DNA from: Candidatus Omnitrophota bacterium
GTDB lineage: Bacteria > Omnitrophota > Gorgyraeia > JAFGGP01
Assembly: GCA_016930485.1 (NCBI GenBank)
Contig: JAFGGP010000017.1
Coordinates: 1 to 54,938, forward strand
Length of the DNA: 54,938 nt
Direction of reading: 5' to 3'
The notes below the pieces were generated by a model. That model saw only the letters and a list, made by a program, of their open reading frames with translations. It searched no databases and was not told the origin of the DNA. Shown one piece after another: positions 1-28,814 of this stretch. Each line of letters starts with the position of its first letter. Within the stretch, counting starts at the first letter, position 1. Made by a program: the position numbers and the translations under genes.

Positions 1-3000
1 CTCTGACGGCATCTGTCCTGTATTACCCCAGTCATCGGTGACTGATTCACCGGCATCCTTGAGCTGGTAATCGTAGCTCACCGTGGTAGTCTGTGAATAG
101 TTTCCGCCAAAGATATCCACGCCTGAGGAGGTCGTGGTCTGCGAGGTCATCACGGCCTGGCCATGCATAATCGTATATATCTGCTCACCTGTCGTATAGG
201 AAGTATCTCCGAAGATATTGGTGGATGAGCCCTCGATGACACCATGAGCAGCAACCATCCCCCATCCTGACCTTATGGCCCCGCCTGCCGTTGCCCCCGG
301 CACTCTCTGATCCCCAACCTCTATAGGCCCATATTCATATGTTACCGTGGTCGTCTGATTCCATGCGCCGCCGAAGATATCAATGCCTGATGATACAGTT
401 GTCTGACTGACAAGGATTGCCTGACCATGAACAATCATGTACTCTTGAGTGCCTGAATTGAACGTGGTATCACCAAAGATATTGGTTGAAAAACCCTCGA
501 AAGAGCCTGTAGCACTCATTAATCCCCAGTAAAGCCTGGTAGTGGGCAGGCCTGTTTCAGAATCCAGTATCGGCTCTTCGTGATATATAGGATTCTCACT
601 GTTATCGCTCCGTTTAAGCTGACCATTAGGATCGATAAACCCGTATTGATAGACAACGGTCGACACCTGTTCCCAATAACCTCCAAACATATCATACCCC
701 GAAGAGGTGGTAACGGTCTCAACGGTATCTATCGCCCCGTAGATAGTAGGTAATACCCTGCCTTCGGCCTCAAAGGTTGTATAGGTTGTTTTACTCTCCG
801 CGGTGGTAGTATTGACGTCGCCAAAGATATTTTGAGATTCGGTCGTAGTGAGAGTTCTTGTGGCAAAGGCGCGTCCCTTAACAATGGTATATTCCGTCAC
901 TGTGGTCGTCGTTACAGTAGCACCGAATATATCCACCGTCGTGGTAATAAGGGGCTGAAGTTCTTCAACATTCACGAGGGCCGCTATTGATTTCTTCCCG
1001 TCTTCTGTTTCGTATTCACCATAGGTGTGCCTGACAATCGACGGCTGGGAGCTCGCCCATGTTTTGCCAAATATGTCCTCTCCCACGCTCTCGGTTATAA
1101 TATCGAGATAATCCATTACCCCCAAAATCGTCCCGGCCCTGTCCAGAATCTCGCCGTATAGGGCTTCGTCAAACTGGGCAATCTCATTCCACTCGGGCCT
1201 CTCTACCTCTTTATAGTGATACTGGCTGGTTGAAACGCTGGTATTCAGGGAACCGAAGACATCCATGGCAACGGTTGTGCTCACAACCACATCGCTGAAC
1301 GGTTTTCCGTTAATAAGTATATAGGTGGTTGAGGTGGTGGTGGTAACCGGATCACCGAAGATATTGACGCTTTCGGTGATCATTGGTTCGATTTCTTCAA
1401 CCGCGATCAATCCGGCAATTGTGGTCTTGCCTTCTTCCGTTGTCAGTTCCCCGAACTGGTGCCTTACCACCGACGGCTGCAGCGTCTCCCACGTCCTGCC
1501 GAATATATCAAGGCCTCTGTTTGAGCTGGTAATTTCGATATAATCCTGAACACCGAAGAGGGTCCTACCGTCATACTCAACCGTCTTGTAGTGGTATTCG
1601 CTGACCGTCTGCGAGTACGTATCAGAGCCAAAAATATCAACCTGGACAGAATCGGAAGTAACCACATCGGCAAGCGCTCTGCCTTTCACTATGGTGTAGG
1701 TGGTGGAGGTAGTGGTTGTTGTTAAGTTCCCAAATAAGTCTTGGGACAGCGTCACACCGCCAACAGCAGTTACCACCTCTTCTGTCCAGGGACTAATCAA
1801 ACTGACAGAAAGGTCCTCGGCCTTCTTAAGGAGACCCTGCCAGACCTTTCCTTCTTCGTTCACATAGAGCGGATCCGGAACCGTCTCAGGATCTTCGGTC
1901 CCGTTTGTATATTCGTAACGCATTGCGGTACGGGTCATAAAAGCGGTCCCGTACATATCAATCCCCAGGGTCGTAGTCACGGTCTCCAGGGGTTTTGACT
2001 GATTGTTGATGGCTAGGTAGTAGGTCTGGGTGGTGACGGCGCTCAGATTGCCGAAGATATCGCTGCTTATCGTAATGGTACCACCCACCCTCTCAAGAAA
2101 CTGCTCGATAAGGAGGGGATCGACATCCAGGAGCTCGCTCAGATCATCCGGAAGCACTATATCAGTTCCCGGAATCTGGATATTGGCGTCAAGATCCCTG
2201 GCACTCATGAGCAGACCGTGCCATAGCTCCCCGCTAGGCATCAGATAGATCGGATTGAGGTGCGCCAGCGGATCAAGACCGACCTCGCGCATGAGGTATG
2301 CCAGCTGCTCTGACAGGATCATCTCGTGCCACTCTTTTTCCTCAGGGAGATTATCCAGAGAGATCCCCAACGCCCCCTTCAAAAACTCTATGCGATCCGC
2401 GAAGGTCATGTGAGGCCAGTTTTCAGGAAGCGAGATCACCGTTGTACCGCCGGTAGTCTGGATTTCGACCGACCCGCCTGACTTGAGGAGCTCGAGCACA
2501 GCCGCCTTCTGGGCGTCGGTCATGCTGTCCCAGAGGATAGCCTCACCGTCGATGATCACATATTGCCCGCTGAGCACCTGGTCGATATAGTAATCGGTCA
2601 GGTCGCTTATCATCAGATAAACGTCTGAAAAGATAGCCGGGTCCTCCGCCCCGGTTGTATACCCGTATTCAAGAATGTTTCTGCTGAAATAGACACTTCC
2701 GAAGATGTCCGCGCCAACCGTATCAGTCGCCACAATCCCAGGTTTTGCCTGCCCGTCAACAATGGCATACGTGGTACTGGTTCTTACTATGGAGGAGCTG
2801 CCGAAGACATCGCTCCGCAGGGTCAGGCCACCGATCCCGGTAATGGTGTTGCCGGTCTCAGGGTCGTCAAGGCTTACTTCCATATCGTAGGCATTCTTTA
2901 AGAGGCCGATATAGACAGAAAGGTCTTCGGGGTTGACGTATCTCGAATCAGGCAGGTCAAAGGGGTCCTCGGTACCATCGGTATACTCATAGCCGACACG

Positions 3001-3770
3001 GGTAATCGTGATTGATGTCGACCCGTCCAGGCTGGTTCCGGTCGTCGTCGTAGTCGCCTCAATAACCTTTGCCTGGCCGTTGACAATGGCGTAGACATTG
3101 TCGGTGTGGGAATGCTGTTCATTGCCGAAGAGATCCGTGGTGATTGAATCGCTGTAGCCGTCGGCCCCGGTCAGATGGCCGACGCTGTCATACTCATAGT
3201 GCGTCACCGAGGTAGTGTCGGTCACTGATCCGTCGAGGCTGAACATAGTACTGGTCCCGCTTGCCTGGGACATGTGTGCCTCTGCCACCTGCGCCTCGTT
3301 GATAATAATCACGTAGTCGAAATCCGTCTCACCCTCGTGTTTATTTCCGAAGATATCGGAACCCGTGTATTCGTCGCCACCGTCCGAGCCTATCAGAAGA
3401 AGCGTATTGGGATCATAATCAAACGTCTGCCAGCCTATCTTGTGCTGTGTAGAGCCATCCATATTCTGAATGTCAGTCACGCTGTTAACCCGTACCACCT
3501 TTGCCTGACCATACATAATCTCGTATATATCGGTGGTAACCGTGGTGTAAGTATTACCAAATATGTCGAGGCCGTTCGTAACGCTTCCGCCCTCGGCCCC
3601 GATCAAGATGCCGTTTTCATCATAGAAGTACTCCACCCAGCTCACCGTATGGCTGGTAGAGCCGTCGGCATTCCAGCGGTAGGTATCCGTATCATACCGG
3701 TTAGTGTTACCGTCGGAATTGAGGTACTTGGTATAGTAGGTCTCGTTTGTGTTGCCAAAGTCGTCTTCGC
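1..3770 (-). repeat. Array of about 20 degenerate D/N-[IVLM]-F-G beta-repeats in the giant protein
   Basis: Recurrent units such as DIFGNTYTTVTTDIYEIMYGQAKVV, DIFGNKHEGETDFDYVIIINEAQV and DLFGNEQHSHTDNVYAIVNGQAKV. A few more copies at about 9790-10260. Confidence 0.85.
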
Positions 3771-6700
3771 CGCTTTCATAGCCTGTTTCCTCATCCGGCG
3801 TATCGGGCGGGGCAGGTGGTTCAGGCGGAGCCGGAGGTTCGGGAATGGGGGGCTCCTCGCTAACCGGTTCGATGCCAATATTTCTGACCCGTATCTCACC
3901 TTCCCAGTTGCCGTCCCAGCTGTCATTCGAAGCCACCTTGATGCCCAGTTGCAGTATCTGGTTCTCATCAAACTCGGCACCCTCGGGATAGGTGTCACCC
4001 TCTGAAAAGTCGAATGTCACTTTGACCCACGTCCCTGTCTCAAGATTGACCCACTCGCTGTAGCGTGATACCCATACGGTCCCGTCAGAGGTCTTGGCAA
4101 AAAGCTGGACCCCTGAAGGCGCTTCTTCAGAGCCGAATCCCGGATCCTCGACCATAATCTCTATAGTGAACTGCTTGTCGGTGTAATCGGTCGGGGCAAT
4201 AGTGAGATAGACCTCACCTTTCCGATAACCATCTACCGGACCATAGCTGCCGTACAGTCTCAGCTCATCATCGCCTGTTTCTATAACGCTCAGGGCCTTG
4301 CTGTCACCCTCGGTATAGCCCTGCCAGTCGCTTGAGGTCGATATATCCGGCTCCTCGGCCTCTTCTGCTTCCTGGGCCAGAGGCTGTTCCGGCTCTTCGG
4401 CCGGAGGTTCAACTGCAGGCGGTTCCTCTGCCGGCGGTTCAACTGCAGGCGGTTCCTCGACCGGAGGCTCTTCACCTCCCATAGTCTCTTCCGGTTCCTC
4501 AGCACTTAAACGGGCAAACAGATCTTCACTGTGACCATCGTAGGGCTCAAGATGGAGAACGAGATTGTCGCCTTCATAGTAAAGATACTCAACTTCGGCG
4601 TTTTCTGCTTCAATGGCTGCATAGATGTTATCAAGATCCGTTGCCTCAACTGTTCCTACATATACCCGGTTACCTCGGTGATCTTCTACAAAGACCCCGC
4701 CAACAGCCGCCCCGAATATCGGAGTTGTAATCGCCCCGGTAACAGGCATACCACCAACCGTATCATCCGGCACATACGCCCTGAAGGCCCTCTCGAGCGC
4801 CGCATCATACTCTGGCGTTCCTTTCTGAGATAGAATGGTGGATAGACCTGCCGTAGTTACAGCGTCGAACCACGCCTCAAGTCTCTCAGGAGCAACAGTT
4901 GTCACCTCCGGAATCACTATCAGGGATGAAGTTAGTTCAGGAAATTCTGCCTTGAGTGAACCCAGCACCGCCTCGGTAAGCCTGGCAAATTCTTCTGCGT
5001 CTATGCGTTCAAGCGGCTCTAGCACAAACTCAGGAAGGGGTTTTGAAGCATCCTGCGGGGTAAGCAAATAGAGGCCAAGAGGGGCCTCGCCCAGAGGCGT
5101 TTCTTTTGTAACTTCATCAGGAGTCAAGCCTTCCGGTGTGAATGACTCGCCCGTTGTTATGTCCATTTCCGGGGCAGCAATCATAAACGTCACCAGCTGA
5201 TACTCGGGAAGTTCCTTCGTAAGATATTGAGAAATCTCATGATAGGGAATTATTGTAAAATCGGCCTCCCTGTCCTCCTTTGGGATATCGCGAATCAGGA
5301 TCAACCGCGGGATAAACTGGACCGGGGTGGTTTCTGGATACGACGGCAGCTTAAGCAAGAGCACTGCACCTGCAGCATCCTGCAACAGAGAACTCTCCTG
5401 CAGCTTTTTAACCGTATCAATAACACTTATCTTAAATGATGGAACTAACTTAGCAACTAAATCCTCAACCGTATCATGAGGGCGCAGTGGTTCGCTCAGG
5501 GCAATCGGGAAAAGAGAGGGTGATATGGAAATAAGAACTGGGATAAACTCGTCAGGTGTAATTTTGGGTACCGGAGGCGCACGAAGGGTAATCACAATCC
5601 CCTGCCACTGGCCCAGGAAATCGCTCTGTGACACCTCATAGAGATTGCCGTCGATTTCCCTAACCAGCACAGTACCGTCCTCTTTAATCCCTTCAATCAC
5701 CACCCAGTGGTCTCCGCCCACATGGGCAATCACCGGCATATCCGCCTGTCTCAGTGCTTCAAAGCTGGTGCGGACCGTAACCATATCAAGGCCGAACTGC
5801 TCGGCAACTTCCCTAATCGCGATGTCCGAGGTATAGACAATATCAAATTGTGCCGGCCTGAGGATGCCGTTAATGATGTCGCTCACGATGGTCTGTGCCG
5901 CTATCTGTGTGGTAGAGACCTTGATACCGAACATCTCGAGTAACCGCTGCAGGGCCTTGGCGCCGCAGCTTATCACAAACTGACCCATCTTTGAGAGCCA
6001 GTCAACCACATTCTTGATGACTGCCAGATCAAGGATGCCTTCCTTAAACTGGTGCGCCTTCTCGGCGGCAATGTCAAGGAGTGTCTTTTCAACCTCATGG
6101 ACTACCTCGGCCGCCTGGTCAAGAAGCCCCTCGGCAGTCTTGTGAAAACTGAGAAGTAGCGTCACATTGCCTTCTGAATCCACGCGGGACTCAAGCACCA
6201 CCCGCGATTCAAGACCGTCCCTTATAACCGAGGCAGTGCCATCGCCATAGACGGTGATGTCAAGAGGGTTGCCGTCTCTGTCTGTGGTCCTGATATGCAG
6301 GTTGCCGTCCGAATCCCTCCACGTCCCATAGGTATCTGCCGAGAGCCCATCAGCACCCAGGGCAGGAAGGAATAATTTCATCTCGCCGTCCTCCTCTTTT
6401 AATATATAGGAAGACGACCCGTCTGCCGACAAACCGATGAGAATCGGGGTATGATAGCCGGCGCTGAGAAACGTCCCGGTAGCAACACCACCTACCTGAG
6501 GATGAGAATCGCTGCCTTCGCGGTTTTCTCCTTCCGGACCGCCGGGGAACGACGTGCCAATGTTCCCCTTATCATAATAAAACTGGGCATTCATGCGAGC
6601 AGTGCCTTTTGCAGTTGTAGCTTTGATAGTGGCGCCTACCATGGTATCCGGCAAGATATAAAGGGAGCCGTGAATAATGCCACCACCCGGGTCATCAATC

Positions 6701-9700
6701 GGGTCCTCTGTCGGGTCATCAGGGGGTACATCGTCCCATGGGTCATCATCCTGCGGGATATTAACCGTCGTGGGATTAAACTGATGTACTGAAAACCCTG
6801 AGAAGGTGTGCGATGCAGAGCCGCTATAGGCGGAGCCGCCCCCGCCCAAACCATACTTTCTGTATACCTCGACCGAGTACCATTTCTCCCCTGGTTCATC
6901 CTCATCGTCGTCAGCGCCGCCAGCTTCGTCATCGTCGTCATCGGCATCATCGTCGTCATCGTCGTCATCCGGAGGGTTATTGCCACCCGGGTCATCCGGG
7001 TCAAATTCCGGGGCACCGGCCGGTGCTACCAGGTCAATAAGTTTGGCAGTCTGAGTAAAGTCGTCCAGCAGTAGTGCGGCTGCCAAGGCCTCATTCGGGG
7101 TAAGGCCGCTGTCGCTGTTCTCTGCGATATAGGCCGCCTCCATCGCCCGCACCCACGCCTTTACCGCAGCGGCCGATATGGCCGATGAGGTGTCTCCTGA
7201 CGGGTTCATATTGACATGAAAGGCAAAATCGGCCACCTGGACCTTGGTAATTTTTTCACCATACTGGTATTGTGTCAGCTCTTCCTCCCAGGAAAGATCT
7301 TCCCAGAACTGTTGAATCGTCACCGATACACCGGTTGTCTTGTTTGTGCCTGTCACCTCTGTGAAGTCTCCGACTGAGCCATTTACGTTGCCATTGTAAT
7401 ACCCGACAAGTTGATACCAAGTGTCAGGTATATTGGGGTCAAGACCCTGGGGATCGATGTAATCGATATAGGAAGCTTGATTGCTGGGGTCAACAATAAT
7501 ATCAATGGTGGTCCCGGGATTGGCCGGGTCGTCAACCGTTACGGCATACGTGTAATTCATCGGGTTAACATTAGAGCCTTTCCCGGCATTGCTCCCATCC
7601 AAGGCGACATAGTCCCATTCACCAGCCTGGTGCGTAACCAGTCTGGTAACCGGGTTGCCATATTGATCACGGACAACCTCTCTGTTAACGTCGTACTGCC
7701 CCCTCTCCACCTTGACCGTAATGACCGCGTCCTTGGTCGGGTCAGGCTCGCCTGCCTCGTTCTCCCCGTAGGTAATAGTCATGGTAAAAGTGTACGTTAC
7801 CGTGTGTACCTGATTCCTATAAATGCGGAAGTCGCTGGACGGGTAAGCTGTGTGGCCTGTATCAGGGTTTTCATAGCGGGTGCCGGTGCCCCAGCTCTGT
7901 CCGGCAAGGTCGACCTCCACGGTTTTTGTCCACTCATAGCCGTTTTCAACCGGCTTGACTGCCAAGGCCGTACCCATCTGACCCTCATCAAACTCACCGA
8001 GTGGCGGATTCCACTCCAGGAGATTGATAGGAGGTGAGGCCACGGTCGGGTTGGTGCCATTTGCAAGCTTTGCAGAGGTATCCAGCACGCCGAAGGCCAG
8101 AAGCTGTATAAAACCGAACCCGTACGGGTCGGTGGTCCAGGCAGAATATGTCGTATTGGCTTTGTTAACGGTGTTGTCCATAAAAGTCGAACTAGGTCCC
8201 CAATGGTCTCCAAGATAATTGGGCGCAGACAGAGTCGAGACATTGCCCCACTGCTTGCCAAGGGAGTTTGAGGCAATCCACAGCTGACGGTCACTGGGGT
8301 CAATGTCATCTCCTACTACCCTCTTCACCGAGGCATACATCATGCCCAGGCCGCACGCCTTGACACACATGGCATCGATATTATATGCCAGGCTCCCGCC
8401 GCCCGTAGTACCGGTATAGGCACCAGTATTGCCGTCGCCTACTGCTGAATAGGCCTCGATCCTTGCCACAAACGCTGATTGGCCCTGCTGATTGCTCCAG
8501 GAATAATAATCCGCATACTCAATACCCGGTATGGCCTCACCACCTCCCCCCACATTATCCCTGGCGACTATCACGCACCTGCCCTGACCGCCAGTTTTTG
8601 ACATATACACATCAAGCCCATCAGCAAGTGTGAACGAGCTGCCGTCAGGGCCTGACTCATCAACCCAGACGTAGCGGCCTGTCGGGGTGGTGTCGCCGTT
8701 CCGGTAAAACTCTATAGTGTAATCCCCAAACTGGAAGTACCCGTACCGCGCGCCGTTTCCATAGTCATACCAGGTTCTGCCATTAGTCGATTGACCTATC
8801 CTATTGCCGTCGCCATCATACAAATCCCAGGCGATAATGCGGCCATTTGCCGGATTGATGCGTGGGTCCCAATGGCTGTTAGGGGGTGCCCAGGGGGGGA
8901 GGGGTGGCTCAGGTGGCGGCGTGTAATCATCATCATCATCATCGGCACCGCGTATCTGTTTCATGACCTCATCGGGGATTTCCCTGGCACCAGCGGGTTT
9001 TTCGCTGCTCAACACCACACCCTGCCACTTCTCCAGAAATTCCTCTTTTGTATAGATAATCACCTCGCCGTTTGTCTCAAGGACCTTGACCAGGTTGTCG
9101 GTCGCGCCAAGGACAATGACATAGTGGGTCGGGCTGAAATGCGCGATGACCGGCTGAGTAAGATTGACCAGTTCGTCATAGGTAAGTTCGAGGCCGTACA
9201 GTTCCACGCCATAGAGTTTTCCTACCTCCCTGAGCGATGACGCCGAAAGAATCAGCCTGCCGCTGGTAAGCGGGGTAATGACCCCGGTAAAGATATCGGT
9301 AAGGATGGTCTTGATCGCGATATCCGCGTAGTCGGTACCGGCAACGCCCAGTTGCATCAAGAGCCGCTGGATCGCCACAAAGGCGCTTGACCCGAAGTGC
9401 GCGTCCTGGTGCTCGAGCCAGTCGATGATAGCCCGCACACCCAGGGCAGTAAGCGAGACCGCGATATCCATAGTCAGGCCGAGTGCGGCAAGCATGGCCC
9501 GCTGCTCCTCAGGAGAAAGGGTGATAAAGCGCTCGAGCACCTCCCTCACCCGGTCAATAATGGTCTCGCGTGCCTCCTGCATCCGGGCATATTCATCGGA
9601 TGCCAGAAGTTCGCGGCGGACATCTTCGAGTGTCTTATCGCCCGAGAGGATTGCCTCCCGATACTGATCAAATTCCTGGGTCGTCGGGTCCCTCCCGAGG

Positions 9701-12075
9701 ATATCCTGGAAAAACTCAAATACCCTGGTTCTCACTAACTCTTCCGAGGGTTGCTGCGGTTGGACATCATACGGCTCCGTATCGCCGGACACGCCGCTCA
9801 CCGAGCGGACGAGCTTTGCCTGACCCAGGATAATCCGGTACTCTTCTACCGAATGGGAGCCGAACTCATTGCCGAAGATATCGTAGCCATGCTGGTCTTT
9901 TTCTCCGTTTGCGTCGATCAGCCTGCCGTCATCATCATACTCATAGGTGACCCAGCCGGTGCCGAAGGTGTCGCTCCCGTCGATCTTGAAGGCCTCTGAC
10001 TCATAGTCGTAGCGCAGTTTCTTGGGCTGGCCGAGGATAATTGCATACTGTACATCGCCGAAGGTATGTACGGTGCTGCCGAACATATCTTCGCTGTTCG
10101 TCTCCTCTGTCCCCGAGGCACCGACGAGGTAGCCGTTCCCGTCATAGGTGTAGTCGATGATCGTATGTGTGGTGCCGAAGGTGCCGTCGATCTCGTTATT
10201 GTATGAGGTGGTATCGGTCTGGATAAGGGTGTAGAGATGTCCGTTGATAATCTCGTAGCGGTTGACTACGTCGGTGCTGTGCTCTGACATAAAGAGCTCA
10301 CTCATGCCCTCTTCGTGGTAGCTCAGGATCTCGCCCCGCCTACCGTACAGGGTTTCTTTGCGGTCTGTGACATAAGGCATACCGCTGTGCTCCCCATCCT
10401 CATGATACCCGATAAGCTGGCCGATATCATTGTAGAGAATGTCCTTCCTCCAGAGATAGTAGTCGCCGAAGACCTCACTCTCCCCTGCCTCGGTATAGCC
10501 GAGCATCTGTTTCTGATCGTTGTAGAGCACCTCGTTAAAAAGACGATAGTAGTGGCCCTGGTCCTGCGTCCAGCCGATCTCGCGGTACTGCATGAGCCGG
10601 TCATACCGGTCATACTCTGCCTCTGTCCAGTCCCTGATCGAATCAGAGAGGCGCTCCTTGTCAACCTCTTCATGATAGCTTATAACCCTGCCGAACTCAT
10701 CGTACACCGCCCCGCTCCAGCTCAGGCTATAGTTTCCTTCGCCCTCGTTCCAGCCGATCTCGCTATAACTGAGGAGCTGATAGACCTTGTTGTACTCGTG
10801 GGCCTCCCAGCTCTTCCTCTGGGTATCGCCCATCGCGCCCACCGTTTCCTCCTCATAAGTCAGGGCCTGGGAAAGCGTGTCATAAGTGGTGTTGACCCGG
10901 GTGGTCAGGGTAGTAAAATCAAGCAGGCTGCCGTCTTCCCCCTGGCCAAAGGTATGAACGTTCTTGACAAATGACACCATGCGGTTGTGTTCATCATAAC
11001 CGTCGTTTGAAAACTGGGTGGTGGTGGTAACGCCGAAGTGATCGGTGACCGACTCGTTATAGCTCAGCAGGCGGTGTTTGCTGTCGTATACCGCATCTGT
11101 CCAGGTTTTGGTAGTGGCATTGCCGAGGCCATCGGTCAAAATCTCTTTATACCCGGTCATGCGACCCAGATGATCATATGTTCCCTCGGACCAGTCGCGC
11201 ATCAGGTGATTGCCGTGTGGGTCGATGATGTCTTCATGAAAACTGGTTAACTGACGGGTGCCATTGTATGTCGCGTTTGAGAAATAGGTGGTGGTAACCA
11301 GGCCAAGGACATCGGTCGTGCGCTTGGTGTATGTCTGCATATTCTTGCCACGGTAGGTGGCGTCGAAAAACTCGGTTTTCGTCACGTTGCCATTGGGGTC
11401 TATCACGGTCTCGGTGTACTGGGTCATATGCTTATTAGCGACCGTATTGACGGTGCCATAAAACACAGAATCAGGGGTGTAGACCGCGCCGGTCCACACG
11501 CCGTGCCAGACATTGCCGAAGGGATCCGTATCATCGTATTCATAATGGATCAAGAGGCGGCGGGCGTCGTATTCCATGTTGTACATGTGGCGTATTTTGG
11601 TGGGGCCCTGAGGGTTCTCGATTTTCTGATTTTCGATCTCAATAACAAAACCGTCCCGCATCCAGGTAACCTGTCCGTCTTCACTCAAGCTGTAGCGCAG
11701 CCCCTTCTGGCCGGCTATCTTCTGTTCCAACTCCTCGGCCTTCTTTTTGAGGGCCGCGTCAATTTGTTTCAGTTCGACCGCTTCCTGGACGACCTCCTGG
11801 TCGAGCTTGACCTTGCCTTCCTCAATCTTCTGACCGCGGAGCTGCTCAATCTCGGCGCGTTTCTGGATTACGTCATTTTGGCGTCTAATAATCTCTCTTA
11901 TTTCTTGGGGTGTTAAAAAACCCGAGGTTCCTCTGCGGTCTCCTCGGGTTCTAAATAGACTGGACAGGTCGTTCCCGGCAGCCCAGGCTACGTTGGACCA
12001 CAGGAACGTCTGAATCAGGATAATCGCAATAATGCGTATCCAGGGTCTACTATGCGGTTCTTGTGCCTCGATCAC
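1..12075 (-). CDS. Giant secreted multidomain protein, >4025 aa, 3' end outside window (YD/RHS-like and DIFG repeats, two C39-like domains, CBM-like domain)
   Basis: GTG at 12075 preceded by GGAGGG. N-terminus MIEAQEPHSRPWIRIIAIILIQTFLWSNVAWA is a Sec signal. Manual translation stays open in this frame over the segments read, including bases 1-60 (...KDAGESVTDDWGNTGQMPSE). The ORF track lists no stop-bounded ORF in this frame. Confidence 0.93.
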   Translation of the reverse strand, partial: MIEAQEPHSRPWIRIIAIILIQTFLWSNVAWAAGNDLSSLFRTRGDRRGTSGFLTPQEIREIIRRQNDVIQKRAEIEQLRGQKIEEGKVKLDQEVVQEAVELKQIDAALKKKAEELEQKIAGQKGLRYSLSEDGQVTWMRDGFVIEIENQKIENPQGPTKIRHMYNMEYDARRLLIHYEYDDTDPFGNVWHGVWTGAVYTPDSVFYGTVNTVANKHMTQYTETVIDPNGNVTKTEFFDATYRGKNMQTYTKRTTDVLGLVTTTYFSNATYNGTRQLTSFHEDIIDPHGNHLMRDWSEGTYDHLGRMTGYKEILTDGLGNATTKTWTDAVYDSKHRLLSYNESVTDHFGVTTTTQFSNDGYDEHNRMVSFVKNVHTFGQGEDGSLLDFTTLTTRVNTTYDTLSQALTYEEETVGAMGDTQRKSWEAHEYNKVYQLLSYSEIGWNEGEGNYSLSWSGAVYDEFGRVISYHEEVDKERLSDSIRDWTEAEYDRYDRLMQYREIGWTQDQGHYYRLFNEVLYNDQKQMLGYTEAGESEVFGDYYLWRKDILYNDIGQLIGYHEDGEHSGMPYVTDRKETLYGRRGEILSYHEEGMSELFMSEHSTDVVNRYEIINGHLYTLIQTDTTSYNNEIDGTFGTTHTIIDYTYDGNGYLVGASGTEETNSEDMFGSTVHTFGDVQYAIILGQPKKLRYDYESEAFKIDGSDTFGTGWVTYEYDDDGRLIDANGEKDQHGYDIFGNEFGSHSVEEYRIILGQAKLVRSVSGVSGDTEPYDVQPQQPSEELVRTRVFEFFQDILGRDPTTQEFDQYREAILSGDKTLEDVRRELLASDEYARMQEARETIIDRVREVLERFITLSPEEQRAMLAALGLTMDIAVSLTALGVRAIIDWLEHQDAHFGSSAFVAIQRLLMQLGVAGTDYADIAIKTILTDIFTGVITPLTSGRLILSASSLREVGKLYGVELYGLELTYDELVNLTQPVIAHFSPTHYVIVLGATDNLVKVLETNGEVIIYTKEEFLEKWQGVVLSSEKPAGAREIPDEVMKQIRGADDDDDDYTPPPEPPLPPWAPPNSHWDPRINPANGRIIAWDLYDGDGNRIGQSTNGRTWYDYGNGARYGYFQFGDYTIEFYRNGDTTPTGRYVWVDESGPDGSSFTLADGLDVYMSKTGGQGRCVIVARDNVGGGGEAIPGIEYADYYSWSNQQGQSAFVARIEAYSAVGDGNTGAYTGTTGGGSLAYNIDAMCVKACGLGMMYASVKRVVGDDIDPSDRQLWIASNSLGKQWGNVSTLSAPNYLGDHWGPSSTFMDNTVNKANTTYSAWTTDPYGFGFIQLLAFGVLDTSAKLANGTNPTVASPPINLLEWNPPLGEFDEGQMGTALAVKPVENGYEWTKTVEVDLAGQSWGTGTRYENPDTGHTAYPSSDFRIYRNQVHTVTYTFTMTITYGENEAGEPDPTKDAVITVKVERGQYDVNREVVRDQYGNPVTRLVTHQAGEWDYVALDGSNAGKGSNVNPMNYTYAVTVDDPANPGTTIDIIVDPSNQASYIDYIDPQGLDPNIPDTWYQLVGYYNGNVNGSVGDFTEVTGTNKTTGVSVTIQQFWEDLSWEEELTQYQYGEKITKVQVADFAFHVNMNPSGDTSSAISAAAVKAWVRAMEAAYIAENSDSGLTPNEALAAALLLDDFTQTAKLIDLVAPAGAPEFDPDDPGGNNPPDDDDDDDDADDDDDEAGGADDDEDEPGEKWYSVEVYRKYGLGGGGSAYSGSASHTFSGFSVHQFNPTTVNIPQDDDPWDDVPPDDPTEDPIDDPGGGIIHGSLYILPDTMVGATIKATTAKGTARMNAQFYYDKGNIGTSFPGGPEGENREGSDSHPQVGGVATGTFLSAGYHTPILIGLSADGSSSYILKEEDGEMKLFLPALGADGLSADTYGTWRDSDGNLHIRTTDRDGNPLDITVYGDGTASVIRDGLESRVVLESRVDSEGNVTLLLSFHKTAEGLLDQAAEVVHEVEKTLLDIAAEKAHQFKEGILDLAVIKNVVDWLSKMGQFVISCGAKALQRLLEMFGIKVSTTQIAAQTIVSDIINGILRPAQFDIVYTSDIAIREVAEQFGLDMVTVRTSFEALRQADMPVIAHVGGDHWVVIEGIKEDGTVLVREIDGNLYEVSQSDFLGQWQGIVITLRAPPVPKITPDEFIPVLISISPSLFPIALSEPLRPHDTVEDLVAKLVPSFKISVIDTVKKLQESSLLQDAAGAVLLLKLPSYPETTPVQFIPRLILIRDIPKEDREADFTIIPYHEISQYLTKELPEYQLVTFMIAAPEMDITTGESFTPEGLTPDEVTKETPLGEAPLGLYLLTPQDASKPLPEFVLEPLERIDAEEFARLTEAVLGSLKAEFPELTSSLIVIPEVTTVAPERLEAWFDAVTTAGLSTILSQKGTPEYDAALERAFRAYVPDDTVGGMPVTGAITTPIFGAAVGGVFVEDHRGNRVYVGTVEATDLDNIYAAIEAENAEVEYLYYEGDNLVLHLEPYDGHSEDLFARLSAEEPEETMGGEEPPVEEPPAVEPPAEEPPAVEPPAEEPEQPLAQEAEEAEEPDISTSSDWQGYTEGDSKALSVIETGDDELRLYGSYGPVDGYRKGEVYLTIAPTDYTDKQFTIEIMVEDPGFGSEEAPSGVQLFAKTSDGTVWVSRYSEWVNLETGTWVKVTFDFSEGDTYPEGAEFDENQILQLGIKVASNDSWDGNWEGEIRVRNIGIEPVSEEPPIPEPPAPPEPPAPPDTPDEETGYESGEDDFGNTNETYYTKYLNSDGNTNRYDTDTYRWNADGSTSHTVSWVEYFYDENGILIGAEGGSVTNGLDIFGNTYTTVTTDIYEIMYGQAKVVRVNSVTDIQNMDGSTQHKIGWQTFDYDPNTLLLIGSDGGDEYTGSDIFGNKHEGETDFDYVIIINEAQVAEAHMSQASGTSTMFSLDGSVTDTTSVTHYEYDSVGHLTGADGYSDSITTDLFGNEQHSHTDNVYAIVNGQAKVIEATTTTTGTSLDGSTSITITRVGYEYTDGTEDPFDLPDSRYVNPEDLSVYIGLLKNAYDMEVSLDDPETGNTITGIGGLTLRSDVFGSSSIVRTSTTYAIVDGQAKPGIVATDTVGADIFGSVYFSRNILEYGYTTGAEDPAIFSDVYLMISDLTDYYIDQVLSGQYVIIDGEAILWDSMTDAQKAAVLELLKSGGSVEIQTTGGTTVISLPENWPHMTFADRIEFLKGALGISLDNLPEEKEWHEMILSEQLAYLMREVGLDPLAHLNPIYLMPSGELWHGLLMSARDLDANIQIPGTDIVLPDDLSELLDVDPLLIEQFLERVGGTITISSDIFGNLSAVTTQTYYLAINNQSKPLETVTTTLGIDMYGTAFMTRTAMRYEYTNGTEDPETVPDPLYVNEEGKVWQGLLKKAEDLSVSLISPWTEEVVTAVGGVTLSQDLFGNLTTTTTSTTYTIVKGRALADVVTSDSVQVDIFGSDTYSQTVSEYHYKTVEYDGRTLFGVQDYIEITSSNRGLDIFGRTWETLQPSVVRHQFGELTTEEGKTTIAGLIAVEEIEPMITESVNIFGDPVTTTTSTTYILINGKPFSDVVVSTTVAMDVFGSLNTSVSTSQYHYKEVERPEWNEIAQFDEALYGEILDRAGTILGVMDYLDIITESVGEDIFGKTWASSQPSIVRHTYGEYETEDGKKSIAALVNVEELQPLITTTVDIFGATVTTTTVTEYTIVKGRAFATRTLTTTESQNIFGDVNTTTAESKTTYTTFEAEGRVLPTIYGAIDTVETVTTSSGYDMFGGYWEQVSTVVYQYGFIDPNGQLKRSDNSENPIYHEEPILDSETGLPTTRLYWGLMSATGSFEGFSTNIFGDTTFNSGTQEYMIVHGQAILVSQTTVSSGIDIFGGAWNQTTTVTYEYGPIEVGDQRVPGATAGGAIRSGWGMVAAHGVIEGSSTNIFGDTSYTTGEQIYTIMHGQAVMTSQTTTSSGVDIFGGNYSQTTTVSYDYQLKDAGESVTDDWGNTGQMPSE
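3871..4335 (-). other. Carbohydrate-binding-module-like beta-sandwich in the giant protein
   Basis: GVQLFAKT..WVSRYSEWVNLETGTWVKVTFDF..FDENQILQLGIKV..WEGEIRVRNIGI, flanked by Pro/Glu-rich linkers; pattern resembles CBM11/17/27-type modules. Confidence 0.55.
4401..4467 (-). repeat. 30-bp tandem repeat encoding an EEPPAVEPPA linker
   Basis: ccgg(a/c)ggttcaactgcaggcggttcctc occurs twice in tandem. Confidence 0.85.
5587..5985 (-). other. Peptidase C39 domain 2 (catalytic Cys and His intact)
   Basis: QFVISCGAKALQRLL...PVIAHVGGDHWVVI...VLVREIDG...DFLGQWQGIVI; Cys codon 5965-5967, His codon 5707-5709. Confidence 0.85.
9010..9410 (-). other. Peptidase C39-like domain 1 (Cys replaced by Phe, presumed inactive)
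   Basis: QDAHFGSSAFVAIQRLL...PVIAHFSPTHYVIVLG...EEFLEKWQGVVL; aligns with domain 2, Phe codon 9394-9396 at the Cys position. Confidence 0.8.
9580..9730 (-). other. DUF4214-like helical motif in the giant protein
   Basis: FFQDILGRDPTTQEFDQYREAILSGDKTLEDVRRELLASDEY matches the LGRxP...S-x-E-[FY] pattern. Confidence 0.55.
10300..11600 (-). repeat. YD/RHS-like repeats of about 30 aa in the giant protein
   Basis: WSEGTYDHLGRMTGYKE, WTDAVYDSKHRLLSYNE, WSGAVYDEFGRVISYHE, WTEAEYDRYDRLMQYRE, LYNDIGQLIGYHE. Confidence 0.8.
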
Positions 12076-12730: not shown

Positions 12731-12751
12731 TGATACGGTTATGATACGGTT
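12731..12751. promoter_or_regulatory. Tandem TGATACGGTT direct repeat (candidate operator)
   Basis: TGATACGGTT-A-TGATACGGTT spans the RND stop codon; the same pair occurs at 24760 and 25316. Confidence 0.55.
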
Positions 12752-15700
12752 TCTGCAGCCTGTTTCAGTCTTTTCCGAAAGAATAAGAACGCCACTATGT
12801 TACTGAGCAACCTTCCAAACTGTTCAAAGAGAAGATACATCCCCGGGATAATGAAAAGCGTGAGGCATGTTGAGCTAATAAGTCCCCCTATGACGGTGAT
12901 CGCCAACGGGGACCACAGAGATGATGACTCACTCTTGCCAATAGCCATAGGCACAAGTCCTAAAACCGTGGTTAGGGTAGTCATCATAATGGGCCTAAGC
13001 CTGTCCTGAGATCCTACTACTATTGCCCGATGTAGCCGATACCCCTTTCTCCTGAGGAGATTGATATGGTCAACCATGACGATGGCGTTATTTACTACAA
13101 TCCCGGCAAGCATAATAGAGCCGATCATAACCCCCTGGGTAATGGAGGTGTGGGTTTTTATAAGGGCTATGGTAACCCCGATGGCGGCAAGGGGTACAGT
13201 GAGCATAATGAGAAATGGTTGAACATACGACTCAAAAAGCGAGGCAAGCACCAAATACACCAAAAGGACGGTAATCACAAATACAAAGATAAGTTGCTTG
13301 TAGCGCTCGAGGTTCTTATAGTAATCACCGCCTATCCGGTAATAATAATCCTTCGGAAAAGGCAGGTCCTTCAAGACCTCCCGGATCTGTTCAACCGCAC
13401 CATGCAGAGAAATGCCTGCGCAGTTGGCGCTGATGTGGATAATCCTGTTCTTATTCTGGCGGATAATTTCGCCTGGTACCAGCGAGGGGACAAACTGGGC
13501 AATCTCCTCAAGATACACCTGCTCCCCTTCCGGGGTACCGAGGGTTAATTTTCGTATTTCATCGATCGTATCCCGATATTCCCCCTGGAGGCGCACCACC
13601 GTTTCAACCTCGGTACCCTCGGTATGATACCGGGTGGCCCTGAGTCCGCGCATCTGGGCATGTAAGGTTTCGGCGACCTCCTTGACGGTCACCCCATAGA
13701 GCGCCGCCCTATCCTTTACTATCTCCACGCCCCATTCAGGCCTACCCTGTATCCTGGACATACGGACATCCTGCAGGCCCTGGATAGTAGACAGCCGTTC
13801 GGAGATCGACCCTGCCAGTTCCTTGAGTATTTTGTAGTCGAACCCGTAGAGGTCCACAATAACCTCTTCCATGCCGGATTCCTTAATTTCTGAAAAATAG
13901 ATAAATCCCCCTTTGTACTTCTTCTCAACGGCGGCCGCCTTTGAGCGGATGTAGTCGATGAGTTCCTGGGTTTCGCGCTGCCTCTGGGCCCGGGGAATCA
14001 AATTAACGTATACCTTGGAAGAACCAGCTTCAACATGGGAAGAGAAATTTTTAATCTCGGGGATCTCTTCAAGAAACTGCTCGATCTCCTTGGCCATATG
14101 ATCCGAGATATCCAGCTTTGCCCCTGGATCAAGATCGACAAATATGGTGAATCTTCCCTCTCCGGAACTGGTGGTAAACTGCTTATCCACCTTATTGGTC
14201 AGAAAGTAGACGGACAGCAAAAAGGCGAGAACAATGTCAAATATGATCAGAAATTTATACCGCAATACAAAAATCAGGACTTTTTTGTATATCCAGGTTA
14301 TGTCAAGGAGGCGGAGCAGAAAGGTTAAAAAACGTCCCCGCACCTTTTTTATCTTTTCTTTTAGCGGCGGCAATATGCGCGAGGCTAGCATAGGAACAAG
14401 GCTCATTGCCACAAAGAGAGAGGAAACCAGCGAGTAGGTCACGGTCATGGCGAGTCCCATCCACAGAATTTGAATCTCTTTATTGACAAAGATAAAGGGC
14501 AAAAAGACGACTATCGTCGTTACGGTTGAGGCGACGACCGCAAGCATAACCTCTTCGGTTCCCTCGACAACCGCCTTTCTTGTCGAAAGGCCGTCTGACC
14601 TGAGCTTGAAGATATTTTCCAGCACGACGATCGAGTTATCCACAAGCATACCAATTCCCAGTGCCAACCCGCTCAGTGTCATAATATTAAGTGTGATCTC
14701 CTGTTTAAAGAGTGTCCGGGACAGATACATAAAAAAGAAGGTTGCCATAACCGAAATGGGGATGGTAGTGGCAATAATAAACGTTGAGGGGATCTCTCGC
14801 AGAAAAAGAAAGAGGATAATGACTGCCAGTAAAGCCCCCTGCAGCAGTGATTCCTGCACCGTGTGAATGGCGTCCTTAATGGAGGTTGACTGATTGAATA
14901 TTGTTTTGATTTTAACCCCTTCAGGAAGTTCTATATGCTTCAATTCATCCAGGATGCCCTCACAGACTCCTATTGTATTGGCGGTGCTTTCTTTGTAGAT
15001 ATAGAGCGACACAACCGGCTGGATATCCACACGGGCATAGCTCTCCGGCTCAAGAAACGAATCATCCACCCGTGCCAGCTCCTTCAATCGAATCACCGAA
15101 CCCTGCGGGGTAGTGGCAACGCCGATATTCCGTACATCCTCGAGTGACTCGAATACCCCGATGGTCCTGATGAGCAGTTTGTTTTTCGTCTGTTTGACCT
15201 CACCGGCTACAAGATTCATATTGCTTCTGCCCAGAACGCTGATCACGCGTTCGATCGGGATGTTGTAGGCCTGGAGCTTTTTTTGGTCAACCTCTACCAG
15301 AATCTTACGCTGCTGACCACCGAATACATCAACGTTTGCCACCCCTTCAACACGTAACAACCGTTCTTTTACATCGGCATCAACGATCTGGCGCAATACC
15401 TCCGGTGAGTGATAGGTACCAGTAGTAGCCAGGAGGATAACGGGATAGTCCGACTGTTTATACTGGGCGATAACCGGTTTTTCTATCTCTTTGGGCAGTT
15501 TTTCCTTTACCGTGGAAAACTTCTCTCTGACCTCCAGTGCGGCAAAATCCATATTGACCCCTGGCTCGAATTCCAGCACCACCCGGGACTCGCCTTTCTT
15601 GGAACTTGAGCTCAGATTATCGAGATGGGTAACCGTACTGACCGCCTCTTCGACCGGTCGGGTCACCAGGGCCTCTACCTCTTCCGGAGGCATGCCGCCC

Positions 15701-15855: not shown

Positions 15856-15878
15856 GTGTTCATTTCCCTATCGATGCA

Positions 15879-16421: not shown

Positions 16422-16424
16422 GAA

Positions 16425-17306: not shown

Positions 17307-17382
17307 TTTCAACTCCCATGATTGGTTCGCGGGCTACTCGGATTCTACGAGTTCGCGAGTTATTTTTTTCGTCCGTTCTTCT

Positions 17383-17412
17383 AATCGCTATCCGCTAGTC
17401 GCTAAACGCTAT
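17383..17412. repeat. Heptamer-periodic intergenic repeat (annCGCT x4)
   Basis: aatcgct atccgct agtcgct aaacgct. Confidence 0.7.
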
Positions 17413-17415
17413 AGC

Positions 17416-21702: not shown

Positions 21703-21774
21703 ACGTTAAATACTTCACCCCCTTATACCACAACACTATGTGTCTCTTTACCAAGGTACACTCACGTTTATAGG

Positions 21775-22989: not shown

Positions 22990-23105
22990 GGTGTCTCTCC
23001 AGAAAAAGTCTCGTTGTAGATAACAATTTCCCGCCCTCGAAACCGCACCGATGGACTCGCGCAGGGGGGGCAATGGAGTCGTTGAGCCCTGTCAACGCCC
23101 CTTAT

Positions 23106-27255: not shown

Positions 27256-27268
27256 CGAAAGGGGCGGT

Positions 27269-28798: not shown

Positions 28799-28814
28799 GG
28801 CCAGGAGGAGTTAG

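What the first reader, a model, noticed from the sequence alone, without database searches (positions are those of the whole stretch)
5521..9410. Complementary C39 pair: the dead domain is followed by a double-glycine site, the active domain is not
C39-like domain 1 has Phe at the catalytic Cys position and is followed directly by EIPDEVMKQIRGA|DDDDDD (8944-8982). This has I(-12), M(-7), I(-4), G(-2), A(-1), the spacing of double-glycine leaders cut by C39 peptidases. Domain 2, about 1100 aa downstream, keeps Gln/Cys2037/His2123 (Glu where Asp is usual). Its equivalent downstream segment (KITPDEFIPVLIS) has no GG/GA. Inference: the protein cuts itself after Ala1044 using domain 2, while domain 1 holds or shields the site, turning bacteriocin-leader chemistry into internal polyprotein processing.
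Basis: partly seen in the sequence, partly recalled or inferred. Interest (0 to 1): 0.85.

Follow-up and report, generated by a model that had tools for sequence, protein, structure and literature searches.

The report
C39 peptidase domain with own cleavage tail
A giant secreted bacterial protein carries a bacteriocin-type peptidase domain that is followed by its own conserved double-glycine cut-site motif, a cassette shared by hundreds of giant proteins, which predicts where such proteins may be cut into pieces.

Summary
The motif is real. IPDEVMKQIRGA|DDDDDD (aa 1033-1044, window 8944-8979, minus strand) follows C39-like domain 1 of a >4025-aa ORF. A matrix built from 145 homologous tails scores it 21.2 bits. 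The next best position in the protein scores 12.9, 200 shuffles reach at most 13.5, and it is the top hit in the whole genome.

One detail is wrong. Cys2037 of domain 2 aligns with Ser897, not Phe. Domain 1 belongs to a large Ser-type subfamily (H-F-G-x-S-A) that keeps Ser, His and an acidic residue almost without exception.

The motif follows C39-like domains in 136 of 151 evaluable Ser- or Cys-type homologous domains (Ser-type 111 of 114, Cys-type 25 of 37), against 0.12 expected per window. The module occurs in 184 of 301 sampled genomes of the phylum. AlphaFold2 docks the tail on domain 1 in cis (pLDDT 93).

Seven near-complete genomes were checked, and each has only one C39 domain, with its own tail. 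A separate "live" domain is therefore not generally needed.

Best reading: a self-processing cassette that cuts after Ala1044, probably through domain 1 itself. Cutting by domain 2, or an uncleaved latch, are not excluded. This is a new variant of a known kind.

The parts
1..12075 (-). Giant ORF (P0001), 4025 aa seen. The C-terminus is cut by the contig end.
11977..12033 (-). N-terminal hydrophobic segment (aa 15-33, IIAIILIQTFLWSNVAWAA), read as a signal peptide or anchor. It is the only N-terminal TM-like stretch. No signal-peptide predictor was run.
   Evidence: Kyte-Doolittle scan. A similar N-terminal string occurs in P0002.
9010..9444 (-). C39-like domain 1 core (aa 878-1022), Ser-type subfamily
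   Evidence: Pfam, genome search, AF2 model pLDDT 93.1, Foldseek top hits PCAT1, ComA and LahT peptidase domains
9385..9387 (-). Ser897 (AGC) at the catalytic Cys position. It lies in the signature A-H-F-G-S-S-A (aa 892-898).
9124..9126 (-). His984, the catalytic His position of domain 1
   Evidence: (invariant H125 of A1)
9076..9078 (-). Glu1000, 16 residues after His984, on the column of the PCAT1 Asp. The family has D or E here in 150 of 167 Ser- or Cys-type copies.
8980..9009 (-). Linker aa 1023-1032 between the domain core and the tail. The tail starts 16 residues after the conserved Trp1017, the shortest spacing seen apart from one outlier at 12.
8944..8979 (-). Double-glycine-type tail IPDEVMKQIRGA (aa 1033-1044, P12-P1). 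The predicted scissile bond is Ala1044|Asp1045, between window bases 8944 and 8943.
   Evidence: (Gly1043 invariant in 41 of 41 rows)
8875..8943 (-). Poly-Asp and Pro-rich linker (aa 1045-1067, DDDDDDYTPPPEPPLPPWAPPNS). Modelled confidence falls below 50 here.
5581..6027 (-). C39 domain 2 (aa 2017-2165), Cys-type, B-type
5965..5967 (-). Cys2037 (TGC), one of only 4 Cys in 4025 aa. Partner residues: Gln2032 (5980-5982), His2123 (5707-5709), Glu2140 (5656-5658).
5527..5580 (-). Tail of domain 2 (aa 2166-2183, APPVPKITPDEFIPVLIS). It keeps the start I-x-P-D-E but has no G-[AGS]. It looks like a decayed copy of the site.
   Evidence: The model has low confidence here.

Best explanation
Domain 1 and the 12 residues that follow its short linker form one conserved cassette: a C39-fold peptidase domain with its own double-glycine-type substrate tail.

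Inferred mechanism, step by step:
1. The tail folds back onto the domain that precedes it. Its P12, P7 and P4 side chains sit in the leader groove, and R-G-A lies extended in the narrow active-site cleft.
2. The chain is then cut once, after Ala1044.
3. This splits the secreted giant protein into two parts. The N-terminal part is about 1044 aa (repeat region plus the C39 domain, with its new C-terminus still docked). The remainder begins DDDDDDYTPPP.
4. The catalyst is most likely domain 1 itself, using Ser897, His984 and Glu1000 in a single-turnover cis reaction.

What is shown: the motif, its conservation, its fixed position, the conserved triad positions, and the confident cis-docked model.

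What is inferred: that the bond is cut at all, that Ser acts as the nucleophile, and that the cut is in cis.

The confidence given is for cis self-cleavage by domain 1. I put about 0.9 on the tail being a selected C39 recognition element of domain 1, and about 0.6-0.65 on the bond being cut by some C39 domain.
For: 1. Specificity of the site. It scores 21.2 bits on a matrix built from 145 other tails. The next position in the protein scores 12.9, and the maximum of 200 shuffles is 13.5. It is also the best hit in 1.59 million residues of six-frame ORFs of the own genome, where the next hit scores 16.4.

2. Conservation.
- The strict motif is present after 111 of 114 evaluable Ser-type and 25 of 37 evaluable Cys-type domains, against 0.12 expected per window.
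- Gly at P2 is invariant in a MAFFT alignment of 41 rows that was made without using the motif.
- All 11 non-self loci from other genomes show the motif.
- 53 loci were found only through the nucleophile-region pattern. Of the 52 evaluable, 48 have the motif within 260 aa. Three more have it after large inserts, and one locus ends too early.
- Sequence similarity stops at P1. Many alignments end at query position 184-186, and what follows ranges from acidic linkers to hydrophobic stretches.

3. The motif fits what C39 peptidases read. The family shows P12 L/I, P8 E/Q, P4 I/V, P2 G and P1 A/S (P12, P4, P2 and P1 were partly fixed by the search pattern). Published work gives Leu(-12)-x3-Glu(-8)-Leu(-7) for ComA. 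In the LahT150 co-crystal, P1-P3 are linear and positions -4 to -11 are helical, with -4, -7 and -12 in a hydrophobic groove. The last 13 leader residues suffice (passages of PMC6363468).

4. Cis docking.
- The AF2 model of aa 860-1058 has mean pLDDT 93.1 and pTM 0.88. Block means are 98 for aa 1030-1039, 79 for aa 1040-1049 and 47 after that.
- It shows a helix at aa 1035-1038 and extended residues at aa 1042-1043.
- The tail never starts closer than 16 residues after the conserved Trp, apart from one outlier at 12.

5. Domain 1 does not look like a decayed domain.
- In the Ser-type, Ser is present in 125 of 125 copies, His in 115 of 115 ungapped copies, and D or E in 113 of 115. An extra His four residues before the Ser is present in 124 of 125.
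- The Ser codons come from both families: TCN 39 and AGC 14 in 53 loci, and TCN 6 and AGY 4. That pattern fits lasting selection for Ser.
- The tree needs 6 Ser/Cys switches by parsimony, and well-supported branches force at least 2.

6. No other enzyme is at hand in relatives.
- G001, G036 and G080 are 95-97% complete. Their single C39 match is a Ser-type domain with a tail.
- G149, G091, G103 and G097 each have a single Cys-type domain with its own tail, inside ORFs of 7,952 to 44,145 aa.

7. Precedent. The C39 domain of StbD-CT cuts itself in cis after Gly-Gly in the adjacent linker. That was shown with C183A and Gly-to-Ser variants, mass spectrometry and a mixing test (sections 7 and 13 of bioRxiv 10.64898/2026.05.07.723447).
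Against: - No cleavage has been observed. Everything here is sequence and model.
- Domain 1 lacks the usual Cys and the Gln of the oxyanion position (Ala892). I know of no C39 member shown to work with Ser (recalled; no search was made for this point).
- I could not see model coordinates, so the distance from Ser897 to the Ala1044 carbonyl is unknown.
- A narrow cleft would select Gly and small residues in a non-cleaved docked tail as well.
- This protein does hold an intact Cys-type domain 2 that has no site of its own, and only one strong site exists in the genome.
- The placement of domain 1 in the tree is unresolved.
- Related sequences are not independent, so the counts overstate the number of independent observations.
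Confidence: 0.42

Rival explanations
1. Domain 1 is a catalytically dead holder that presents the tail. The intact Cys-type domain 2 (Gln2032, Cys2037, His2123, Glu2140), from the same chain or a neighbouring copy, cuts after Ala1044.
For: - Domain 2 keeps all four canonical positions, and its relatives keep Cys, His and the acidic residue. In A2, C30 and H116 are invariant and E133 nearly so.
- Domain 2 has no site of its own.
- The protein and the 89%-complete genome hold only one strong site, so this site is the obvious candidate substrate.
- Domain 1 lacks Cys and the Gln.
Against: - Of 153 proteins, 122 have Ser-type domains only, each with the tail. Only 3 proteins mix Ser- and Cys-types.
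- Genomes exist with a single Ser-type domain and no other C39 match.
- In the closest two-domain relatives, the domain that carries the tail is itself Cys-type.
- The model buries the tail on domain 1. It would have to be released before another domain could reach it.
Confidence: 0.2
2. An uncleaved latch. The Ser-type domain is a binding module only, like the C39-like domains of haemolysin-type exporters. It clamps its own leader-like tail permanently, as a structural joint, a hinge next to the membrane, or an autoinhibitory plug. The chain is not cut.
For: - The Cys and the Gln are absent.
- The docking is confident.
- The HlyB C39-like domain is among the fold and profile matches (3zua).
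- Small residues at P1 and P2 would be needed for docking alone.
Against: - Ser, His and the acidic residue are kept almost without exception, and both Ser codon families are used. A pure binding module has no evident need for them.
- Cys-type members with full triads carry the same tail at the same spacing. The one tested C39 domain with an adjacent Gly-Gly linker does cut itself.
- Homology ends exactly at P1.
Confidence: 0.25
3. The motif is a chance match, or a leader for export by a separate peptidase-containing ABC transporter.
For: Short motifs of this kind do occur by chance. The loose pattern has 7 matches in this protein.
Against: - The matrix score is far above the shuffles.
- The motif is conserved at a fixed position in well over 100 homologs.
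- The own genome has no C39 match outside this ORF.
- Pfam finds no ABC-transporter domain in this protein or in five relatives.
Confidence: 0.02

Closest known systems
Peptidase domains of AMS/PCAT ABC transporters (MEROPS/Pfam C39: ComA, LahT, PCAT1)
   Same: - Same fold. The Foldseek top hits are 7n87, 5xe8, 6mpz and 3k8u. The profile hits are 7n87 at 1.1e-9 and 6mpz at 8.9e-7.
- Same His and acidic spacing of 16 residues.
- The substrate element has the same pattern as a double-glycine leader: P12, P8, P7, P4, then G-[AGS].
   Different: - It is not part of an ABC transporter.
- The leader-like element is internal, sits C-terminal to the domain in the same chain, and is about 1040 aa from the N-terminus.
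- Domain 1 has Ser for Cys and Ala for Gln.
- The protein has an N-terminal signal-like segment, so the domain is probably outside the cytoplasm (inference).
Auto-processing C39 toxin domains (StbD-CT of Citrobacter rodentium; Cpe1)
   Same: A C39 domain cuts its own chain in cis after a Gly-Gly in the neighbouring linker. The structures appear among the matches (8ssk, 8ssm, 9l5u).
   Different: - There the site lies N-terminal to the domain, the nucleophile is Cys, and the domain goes on to act as a toxin on GyrB and ParE.
- Here the site is C-terminal, it carries a full 12-residue leader-like helix, and no further substrate is known.
C39-like domains (CLD) of haemolysin-type type I secretion transporters (HlyB)
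   Same: C39 fold without the catalytic Cys, and substrate binding without need of the thiol (3zua among the matches).
   Different: - The CLD is fused to an ABC transporter and has no conserved replacement nucleophile (recalled: Tyr in HlyB).
- Here Ser, His and the acidic residue are nearly invariant, and the bound element is a double-glycine tail in cis.
C39 domains reported in giant Omnitrophota proteins (West-Roberts et al. 2023 preprint; 2026 complete-genome preprint)
   Same: The same kind of proteins. The record titles of 30 of 53 related loci name Candidatus Omnitrophota or Omnitrophica. Relatives hold the module in ORFs of up to 68,606 aa. The 2023 preprint already proposes that the C39 domains may cut the giants into smaller polypeptides (passages). 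The 2026 preprint lists a 24-protein PF03412 architecture group (one passage).
   Different: The 2023 preprint states that no information on cleavage points was available. In the passages I read, neither preprint mentions a double-glycine site ('double-glycine': 0 occurrences in both) or a Ser-type subfamily.

Membership tests
Peptidase C39 (Pfam PF03412) | Match to the family profile above the curated cut-off | tested here: met
   91 bits against a cut-off of 22, with two stretches. The genome search gives 52.6 bits (domain 2) and 46.4 bits (domain 1).
Peptidase C39 (Pfam PF03412) | C39 / papain-like fold | tested here: met
   Domain 1: AF2 pLDDT 93.1. Foldseek probability is 1.00 to the PCAT1, ComA and LahT peptidase domains, with TM (target-normalised) 0.61-0.75. 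Domain 2: the model is too poor to judge (pLDDT 64).
Peptidase C39 (Pfam PF03412) | Catalytic Cys on the first helix | tested here: not met
   Domain 1 has Ser897. Domain 2 meets this feature with Cys2037.
Peptidase C39 (Pfam PF03412) | Catalytic His, and an Asp 16 residues later | tested here: met
   His984 and His2123 are present. The acidic position holds Glu in both domains (Glu1000, Glu2140), not Asp. The family column has D or E.
Peptidase C39 (Pfam PF03412) | Gln upstream of the nucleophile (proposed oxyanion residue) | tested here: not met
   Domain 1 has Ala892. Domain 2 has Gln2032. The column is mostly L, T or I in the family. The role of this Gln is itself questioned for LahT.
Peptidase C39 (Pfam PF03412) | Cleaves after the G-[GAS] of a double-glycine leader | not testable with these tools
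   A matching motif is present and conserved. Cleavage needs an experiment.
AMS/PCAT transporter | Peptidase domain fused to an ABC transmembrane domain and an ATPase | tested here: not met
   Pfam finds no ABC domains. The NCBIfam matches are partial and far below cut-off, 50.6 against 853.3 bits.
C39-like domain (CLD) of type I secretion ABC transporters | C39 fold without the catalytic Cys, N-terminal to an ABC transporter, binding but not cutting the substrate | tested here: inconclusive
   The Cys is absent in domain 1 (met). The fusion to an ABC transporter is absent (not met). Binding without cutting cannot be tested here.
Cis auto-processing C39 domains (StbD-CT type) | Gly-Gly-type site in the linker next to the domain, cut in cis by the domain's Cys | tested here: inconclusive
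   An adjacent site is present, but on the C-terminal side. Cis docking is modelled. The nucleophile is Ser, not Cys. Cleavage was not tested.

The most novel reading that the evidence does not exclude
The Ser-type domains are working serine-nucleophile enzymes on a papain/C39 fold. Each makes one intramolecular cut after G-[AS] of its own tail.

In most family members this would sever a giant extracellular part from a hydrophobic, membrane-embedded C-terminal region that starts at P1' (100 of 110 Ser-type tails). The switch from Cys to Ser would then be an adaptation to working outside the cytoplasm.

This would give the first concrete cleavage map for the giant proteins of Omnitrophota, and a new catalytic type within family C39.
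Probability: 0.35. Interest if true: 0.8.

Novelty: new variant of a known kind. Interest (0 to 1): 0.62.

Why it matters
Whether the giant proteins of Omnitrophota act as single chains or are cut into pieces is an open question. The preprint that describes them says that no cleavage points are known.

The cassette found here predicts one exact bond per C39 domain. In this protein it is Ala1044|Asp1045. The prediction extends to the 184 of 301 sampled genomes of the phylum that hold the module.

That makes the question testable in three ways: with one recombinant fragment, with point mutants, or with a search of metaproteomes for the predicted termini.

The work also brings up a large C39 subfamily in which Ser replaces the catalytic Cys while His and the acidic residue stay conserved. 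That is either a new catalytic variant of a cysteine peptidase family or a new kind of self-binding pseudo-enzyme.

Tried and rejected
- **Single-sequence PDB searches.** The search with domain 2 gave only designed repeat proteins, matched on a 28-35-residue strand motif. I treat those as spurious. Domain 1 gave nothing. The profile search was used instead.

- **Complex prediction.** I ran domain 2 (A2, residues 1-160) with the tail of domain 1 (A1, residues 164-199). The result was no verdict: score 0.00 in two runs against a mark of 0.32, and the controls were not run. It counts neither for nor against binding.

- **AF2 of domain 2 with its tail.** The alignment had 10 rows, the mean pLDDT was 64.0, and the tail was below 50. 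This is too weak to say whether its groove is free. The alignment is much shallower than that for domain 1, so the two models are not a fair comparison.

- **Word-index search limited to proteins of 2213-7044 aa.** It found only 2 proteins. The exhaustive search found 397.

- **My first guess for the third catalytic residue.** I took Asn1002 and Asp2142. The profile alignment to PCAT1 and the 16-residue spacing point to Glu1000 and Glu2140 instead, so I dropped it.

- **N-to-O acyl-shift autoproteolysis.** Rejected. P1' is mostly F, G, C or D, not a conserved Ser, Thr or Cys.

- **Relation of the region after the tail to ABC transporters.** Pfam finds nothing there in P0022, P0025 or P0074.

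- **Literature.** The two searches for an already described site or a self-cleaving C39 and the two earlier ones found the StbD-CT preprint and the two Omnitrophota preprints. They found no paper describing a double-glycine site after the C39 domains of giant proteins. Supplements were closed, and those of the two Omnitrophota preprints might hold domain tables that bear on this.

No earlier findings were used.

Full report
**What is there**

The window is the first 54,938 bases of contig C31 of a 1.9-Mb genome that is 89% complete. Bases 1-12075 on the minus strand form one open frame of 4025 codons, which runs off the contig end, so the C-terminus is missing.

Pfam finds only Peptidase_C39, in two stretches. 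NCBIfam gives partial matches to peptidase-containing ABC exporters that lie far below their cut-offs.

The protein starts with one hydrophobic segment (aa 15-33). Only two other, weaker stretches reach the same cut-off (aa 860-880 inside domain 1, and aa 2445-2463). It contains only four Cys residues, one of which is Cys2037. I read it as a secreted or anchored surface protein. That is an inference; no signal-peptide predictor was run.

Upstream on the same strand lie genes for two AcrB-type pumps, a membrane-fusion protein and an outer-membrane factor.

**Checking the observation**

The coordinates are right. EIPDEVMKQIRGA is aa 1032-1044 (window 8944-8982), followed by six Asp and a Pro-rich stretch.

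The two domains are 29% identical over 160 residues (E 1e-25). The alignment has no gap across the nucleophile region and pairs Cys2037 with Ser897, not with Phe899. His984 pairs with His2123.

A profile of the family aligned to PCAT1 places the PCAT1 Asp, 16 residues after its His, on the column that holds Glu1000 in domain 1. Together with alignment A2, it places it on Glu2140 in domain 2. "Phe at the Cys position" does not.

**Is the motif more than chance?**

I built a position matrix from the tails of 145 homologous domains, leaving this protein out.
- The site scores 21.2 bits.
- The next best position in the 4025 residues scores 12.9 and lies in a repeat.
- The best score in 200 shuffles of the protein is 13.5.
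- Across all six-frame ORFs of at least 60 aa in the own genome (1.59 million residues), it is the top hit and the next scores 16.4.

**The family**

An exhaustive search with aa 860-1100 found 397 proteins at E <= 0.001. Most of the 150 listed are 2000-6300 aa long. A local profile finds 182 domain copies in the 153 proteins held.

At the nucleophile column there are 125 Ser, 42 Cys, 3 other residues and 12 gaps. His is present in 168 copies.

The two types have distinct signatures:
- Ser-type: H-F-G-x-S-A. The extra His is present in 124 of 125 copies.
- Cys-type: N-[VI]-[IV]-N-C-A.

Both types keep an invariant or nearly invariant Asp in the second helix region, the His, and D or E at the third triad position. 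Domain 1 of this protein (A-H-F-G-S-S-A) is a regular Ser-type member. Domain 2 is Cys-type.

**The tail in the family**

A strict pattern ([LIVM]-x7-[LIVM]-x-G-[AGS]) within 75 residues after the conserved Trp gives these counts:
- present in 111 of 114 evaluable Ser-type copies;
- present in 25 of 37 evaluable Cys-type copies;
- 16 Ser- or Cys-type copies were not evaluable because the protein ends or the Trp column is gapped, and 15 copies with another residue or a gap at the nucleophile column are not counted above;
- 0.12 matches are expected per window.

A MAFFT alignment of 41 domain-plus-tail segments, made without reference to the pattern, has only six invariant columns. One of them is the P2 Gly, Gly1043 here.

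The tail starts 16-17 residues after the Trp in 72 of 146 cases. Apart from one outlier at 12, it never starts closer than 16.

Similarity ends at P1. After it come acidic or Pro-rich linkers, as here and in the closest two-domain relatives. In most Ser-type proteins, a hydrophobic Gly-rich stretch begins exactly at P1'. That holds for 100 of 110 Ser-type tails and 0 of 24 Cys-type tails.

Most of the Cys-type copies without a tail are the second domains of two-domain relatives. These share the ending R-A-P-P with domain 2 here. The tail of domain 2 still begins I-T-P-D-E, like I-P-D-E of the real site. It looks like a decayed copy.

**Independent samples**

In 301 genomes sampled from the phylum, 184 have the module at E <= 1e-5. 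It often lies in open frames of thousands to tens of thousands of codons, up to 68,606. All 11 non-self loci returned show the tail.

A scan of species-representative genomes used only the Ser-type nucleophile pattern and returned 53 loci. Their record titles name Candidatus Omnitrophota or Omnitrophica in 30 cases, "uncultured Planctomycetia" in 15, "uncultured bacterium" in 6, and other names in 2.

Of the 52 evaluable loci:
- 48 have the tail within 260 residues of the Ser;
- 3 more have it after large insertions in the domain;
- 1 locus ends too early.

The Ser codon is TCN in 39 loci and AGC in 14. In this window it is AGC. The two codon families are two base changes apart, with Cys (TGY) one step from each. 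This fits long selection for Ser and exchange through Cys.

A FastTree tree of 157 domains was built with the nucleophile neighbourhood left out. It needs 6 Ser/Cys changes by parsimony, and well-supported branches force at least 2. The placement of domain 1 is unresolved.

**Structure**

AlphaFold2 on aa 860-1058 with the 41-row alignment gives mean pLDDT 93.1 and pTM 0.88. Confidence stays at 98 over aa 1030-1039, is 79 over aa 1040-1049 and drops to 47 after that. The model has a short helix at aa 1035-1038 and extended residues at aa 1042-1043.

This mirrors the LahT150 leader complex. There P1-P3 are linear, residues -4 to -11 are helical, and -4, -7 and -12 fill a hydrophobic groove (passages of PMC6363468).

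Foldseek places the model with the PCAT1, ComA and LahT peptidase domains, the StbD toxin and the HlyB C39-like domain.

I could not read coordinates, so the geometry at Ser897 is not known. The model of domain 2 is poor.

**Who cuts?**

Four near-complete genomes (G149, G091, G103, G097) have a single C39 match each. It is a Cys-type domain followed by its own tail, inside ORFs of 7,952-44,145 codons.

Five further genomes (95-97% complete) had one module match each. PF03412 matched in three of them (G001, G036, G080), at the place of that same domain, and found nothing in the other two. The three checked are Ser-type with a tail.

Of the 153 proteins, 122 hold Ser-type domains only. Only three, including this one, mix Ser- and Cys-types.

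So the cassette normally has no other C39 enzyme to rely on. The simplest reading is that each domain acts on its own tail. For a Cys-type C39 domain, cis auto-processing after Gly-Gly in the neighbouring linker has been shown experimentally in StbD-CT.

For the Ser-type, the near-invariant Ser, His and acidic residue argue for catalysis. The loss of the Cys and the Gln argues for caution.

In this particular protein an intact Cys-type domain 2 is present, and only one strong site exists.

**Comparison and novelty**

The fold, the triad spacing and the recognition pattern are those of family C39. The setting is not. There is no ABC transporter, the "leader" is internal and C-terminal to the enzyme in the same chain, the nucleophile of domain 1 is Ser, and the location is probably outside the cytoplasm.

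The idea that C39 domains cut giant Omnitrophota proteins is already in print, with the explicit remark that cleavage points are unknown. My four literature searches found no description of the site or of the Ser-type. Supplements were not available.

I rate it a new variant of a known kind.

**Verdict**

My estimates:
- about 0.9 that the tail is a selected recognition element of domain 1;
- about 0.6-0.65 that the bond after Ala1044 is cut;
- about 0.42 that domain 1 cuts it in cis;
- about 0.2 that domain 2 cuts it;
- about 0.25 that it is an uncleaved latch.

Noticed in passing
window 12739-25226 (-): Directly upstream of the giant gene, on the same strand, lie two AcrB-family pumps (1038 and 1428 aa), two small ORFs without Pfam matches, a HlyD-type membrane-fusion protein, and an outer-membrane factor with an AMIN domain. 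Whether this tripartite pump has anything to do with export of the giant protein is unknown.
   Followed up: partly
homologs P0018-P0153; loci L024-L076: In most Ser-type proteins the residue after the predicted cut begins a hydrophobic, Gly-rich stretch. There are a few recurring forms (FFPLLF..., CLPFLF..., GWWxxFWKGIV..., FWGSILG...). The stretch opens a C-terminal region of about 800-1000 aa with no Pfam match. Ser-type and membrane-adjacent go together (100 of 110 against 0 of 24), but related sequences are not independent.
   Followed up: partly
P0054, P0060, P0067, P0082, P0084, P0094, P0098, P0102, P0113, P0152; L046, L059, L070: In some homologs the C39-like domain is split by an insertion. 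The N-terminal half carries the Ser. The C-terminal half carries the His and the tail. In most of these the insert is roughly 250-450 aa.
   Followed up: no
window 9570-9732 (-), aa 781-835: Just before domain 1 lies a segment (VRTRVFEFFQDILGRDP...SDEY). A similar string stands before the C39-like domain of P0002. It recalls DUF4214-type repeats (from memory), but Pfam gave no match at E <= 0.1.
   Followed up: no
window 11977-12033 (-) and the N-terminus of P0002: The N-terminal hydrophobic segment ends FLWSNVAWAAG here and FLWNQIVWAGD in P0002, a protein that is otherwise only distantly related. This may be a family-specific signal or anchor.
   Followed up: no
window 1-3570 (-), aa ~2837-4025, and aa 663-732: There are 19 copies of a [DN]-[IML]-F-G motif, about 35-110 residues apart, mostly in the last 1200 residues seen. 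The N-terminal 800 residues have YD/RHS-like repeats that Pfam does not score. P0002 has a weak RHS_repeat match.
   Followed up: no
window 6895-6969 (-), aa 1703-1727: A second, longer acidic run (DDDDDDDDADDDDDE...DDDEDE) and two Pro/Glu-rich linkers (aa 2535-2558 and 2736-2765) divide the protein into blocks. None of them has a double-glycine-type site.
   Followed up: partly
G222:C1, G111:C9, G091:C1, G155:C2, G149:C1: Relatives in the same class carry the module inside open frames of 39,687 to 68,606 codons, in genomes of only about 1.5-2 Mb.
   Followed up: no
P0004 aa 1854-2036, P0006 aa 1624-1806, P0010 aa 1787-1971: Some second or third domains of relatives are followed by a degenerate tail (for example ...IMTSGT...IMLSGE). 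After it comes a Pro-rich linker ending PEW..HW that resembles the linker after domain 1 here (PPPEPPLPPWAPPNSHW). Domain order may have been shuffled between these proteins.
   Followed up: no
window 26038-29777 (+): A FIST-domain protein, a GAF histidine kinase and a response regulator with a GGDEF domain lie in a row on the other strand.
   Followed up: no
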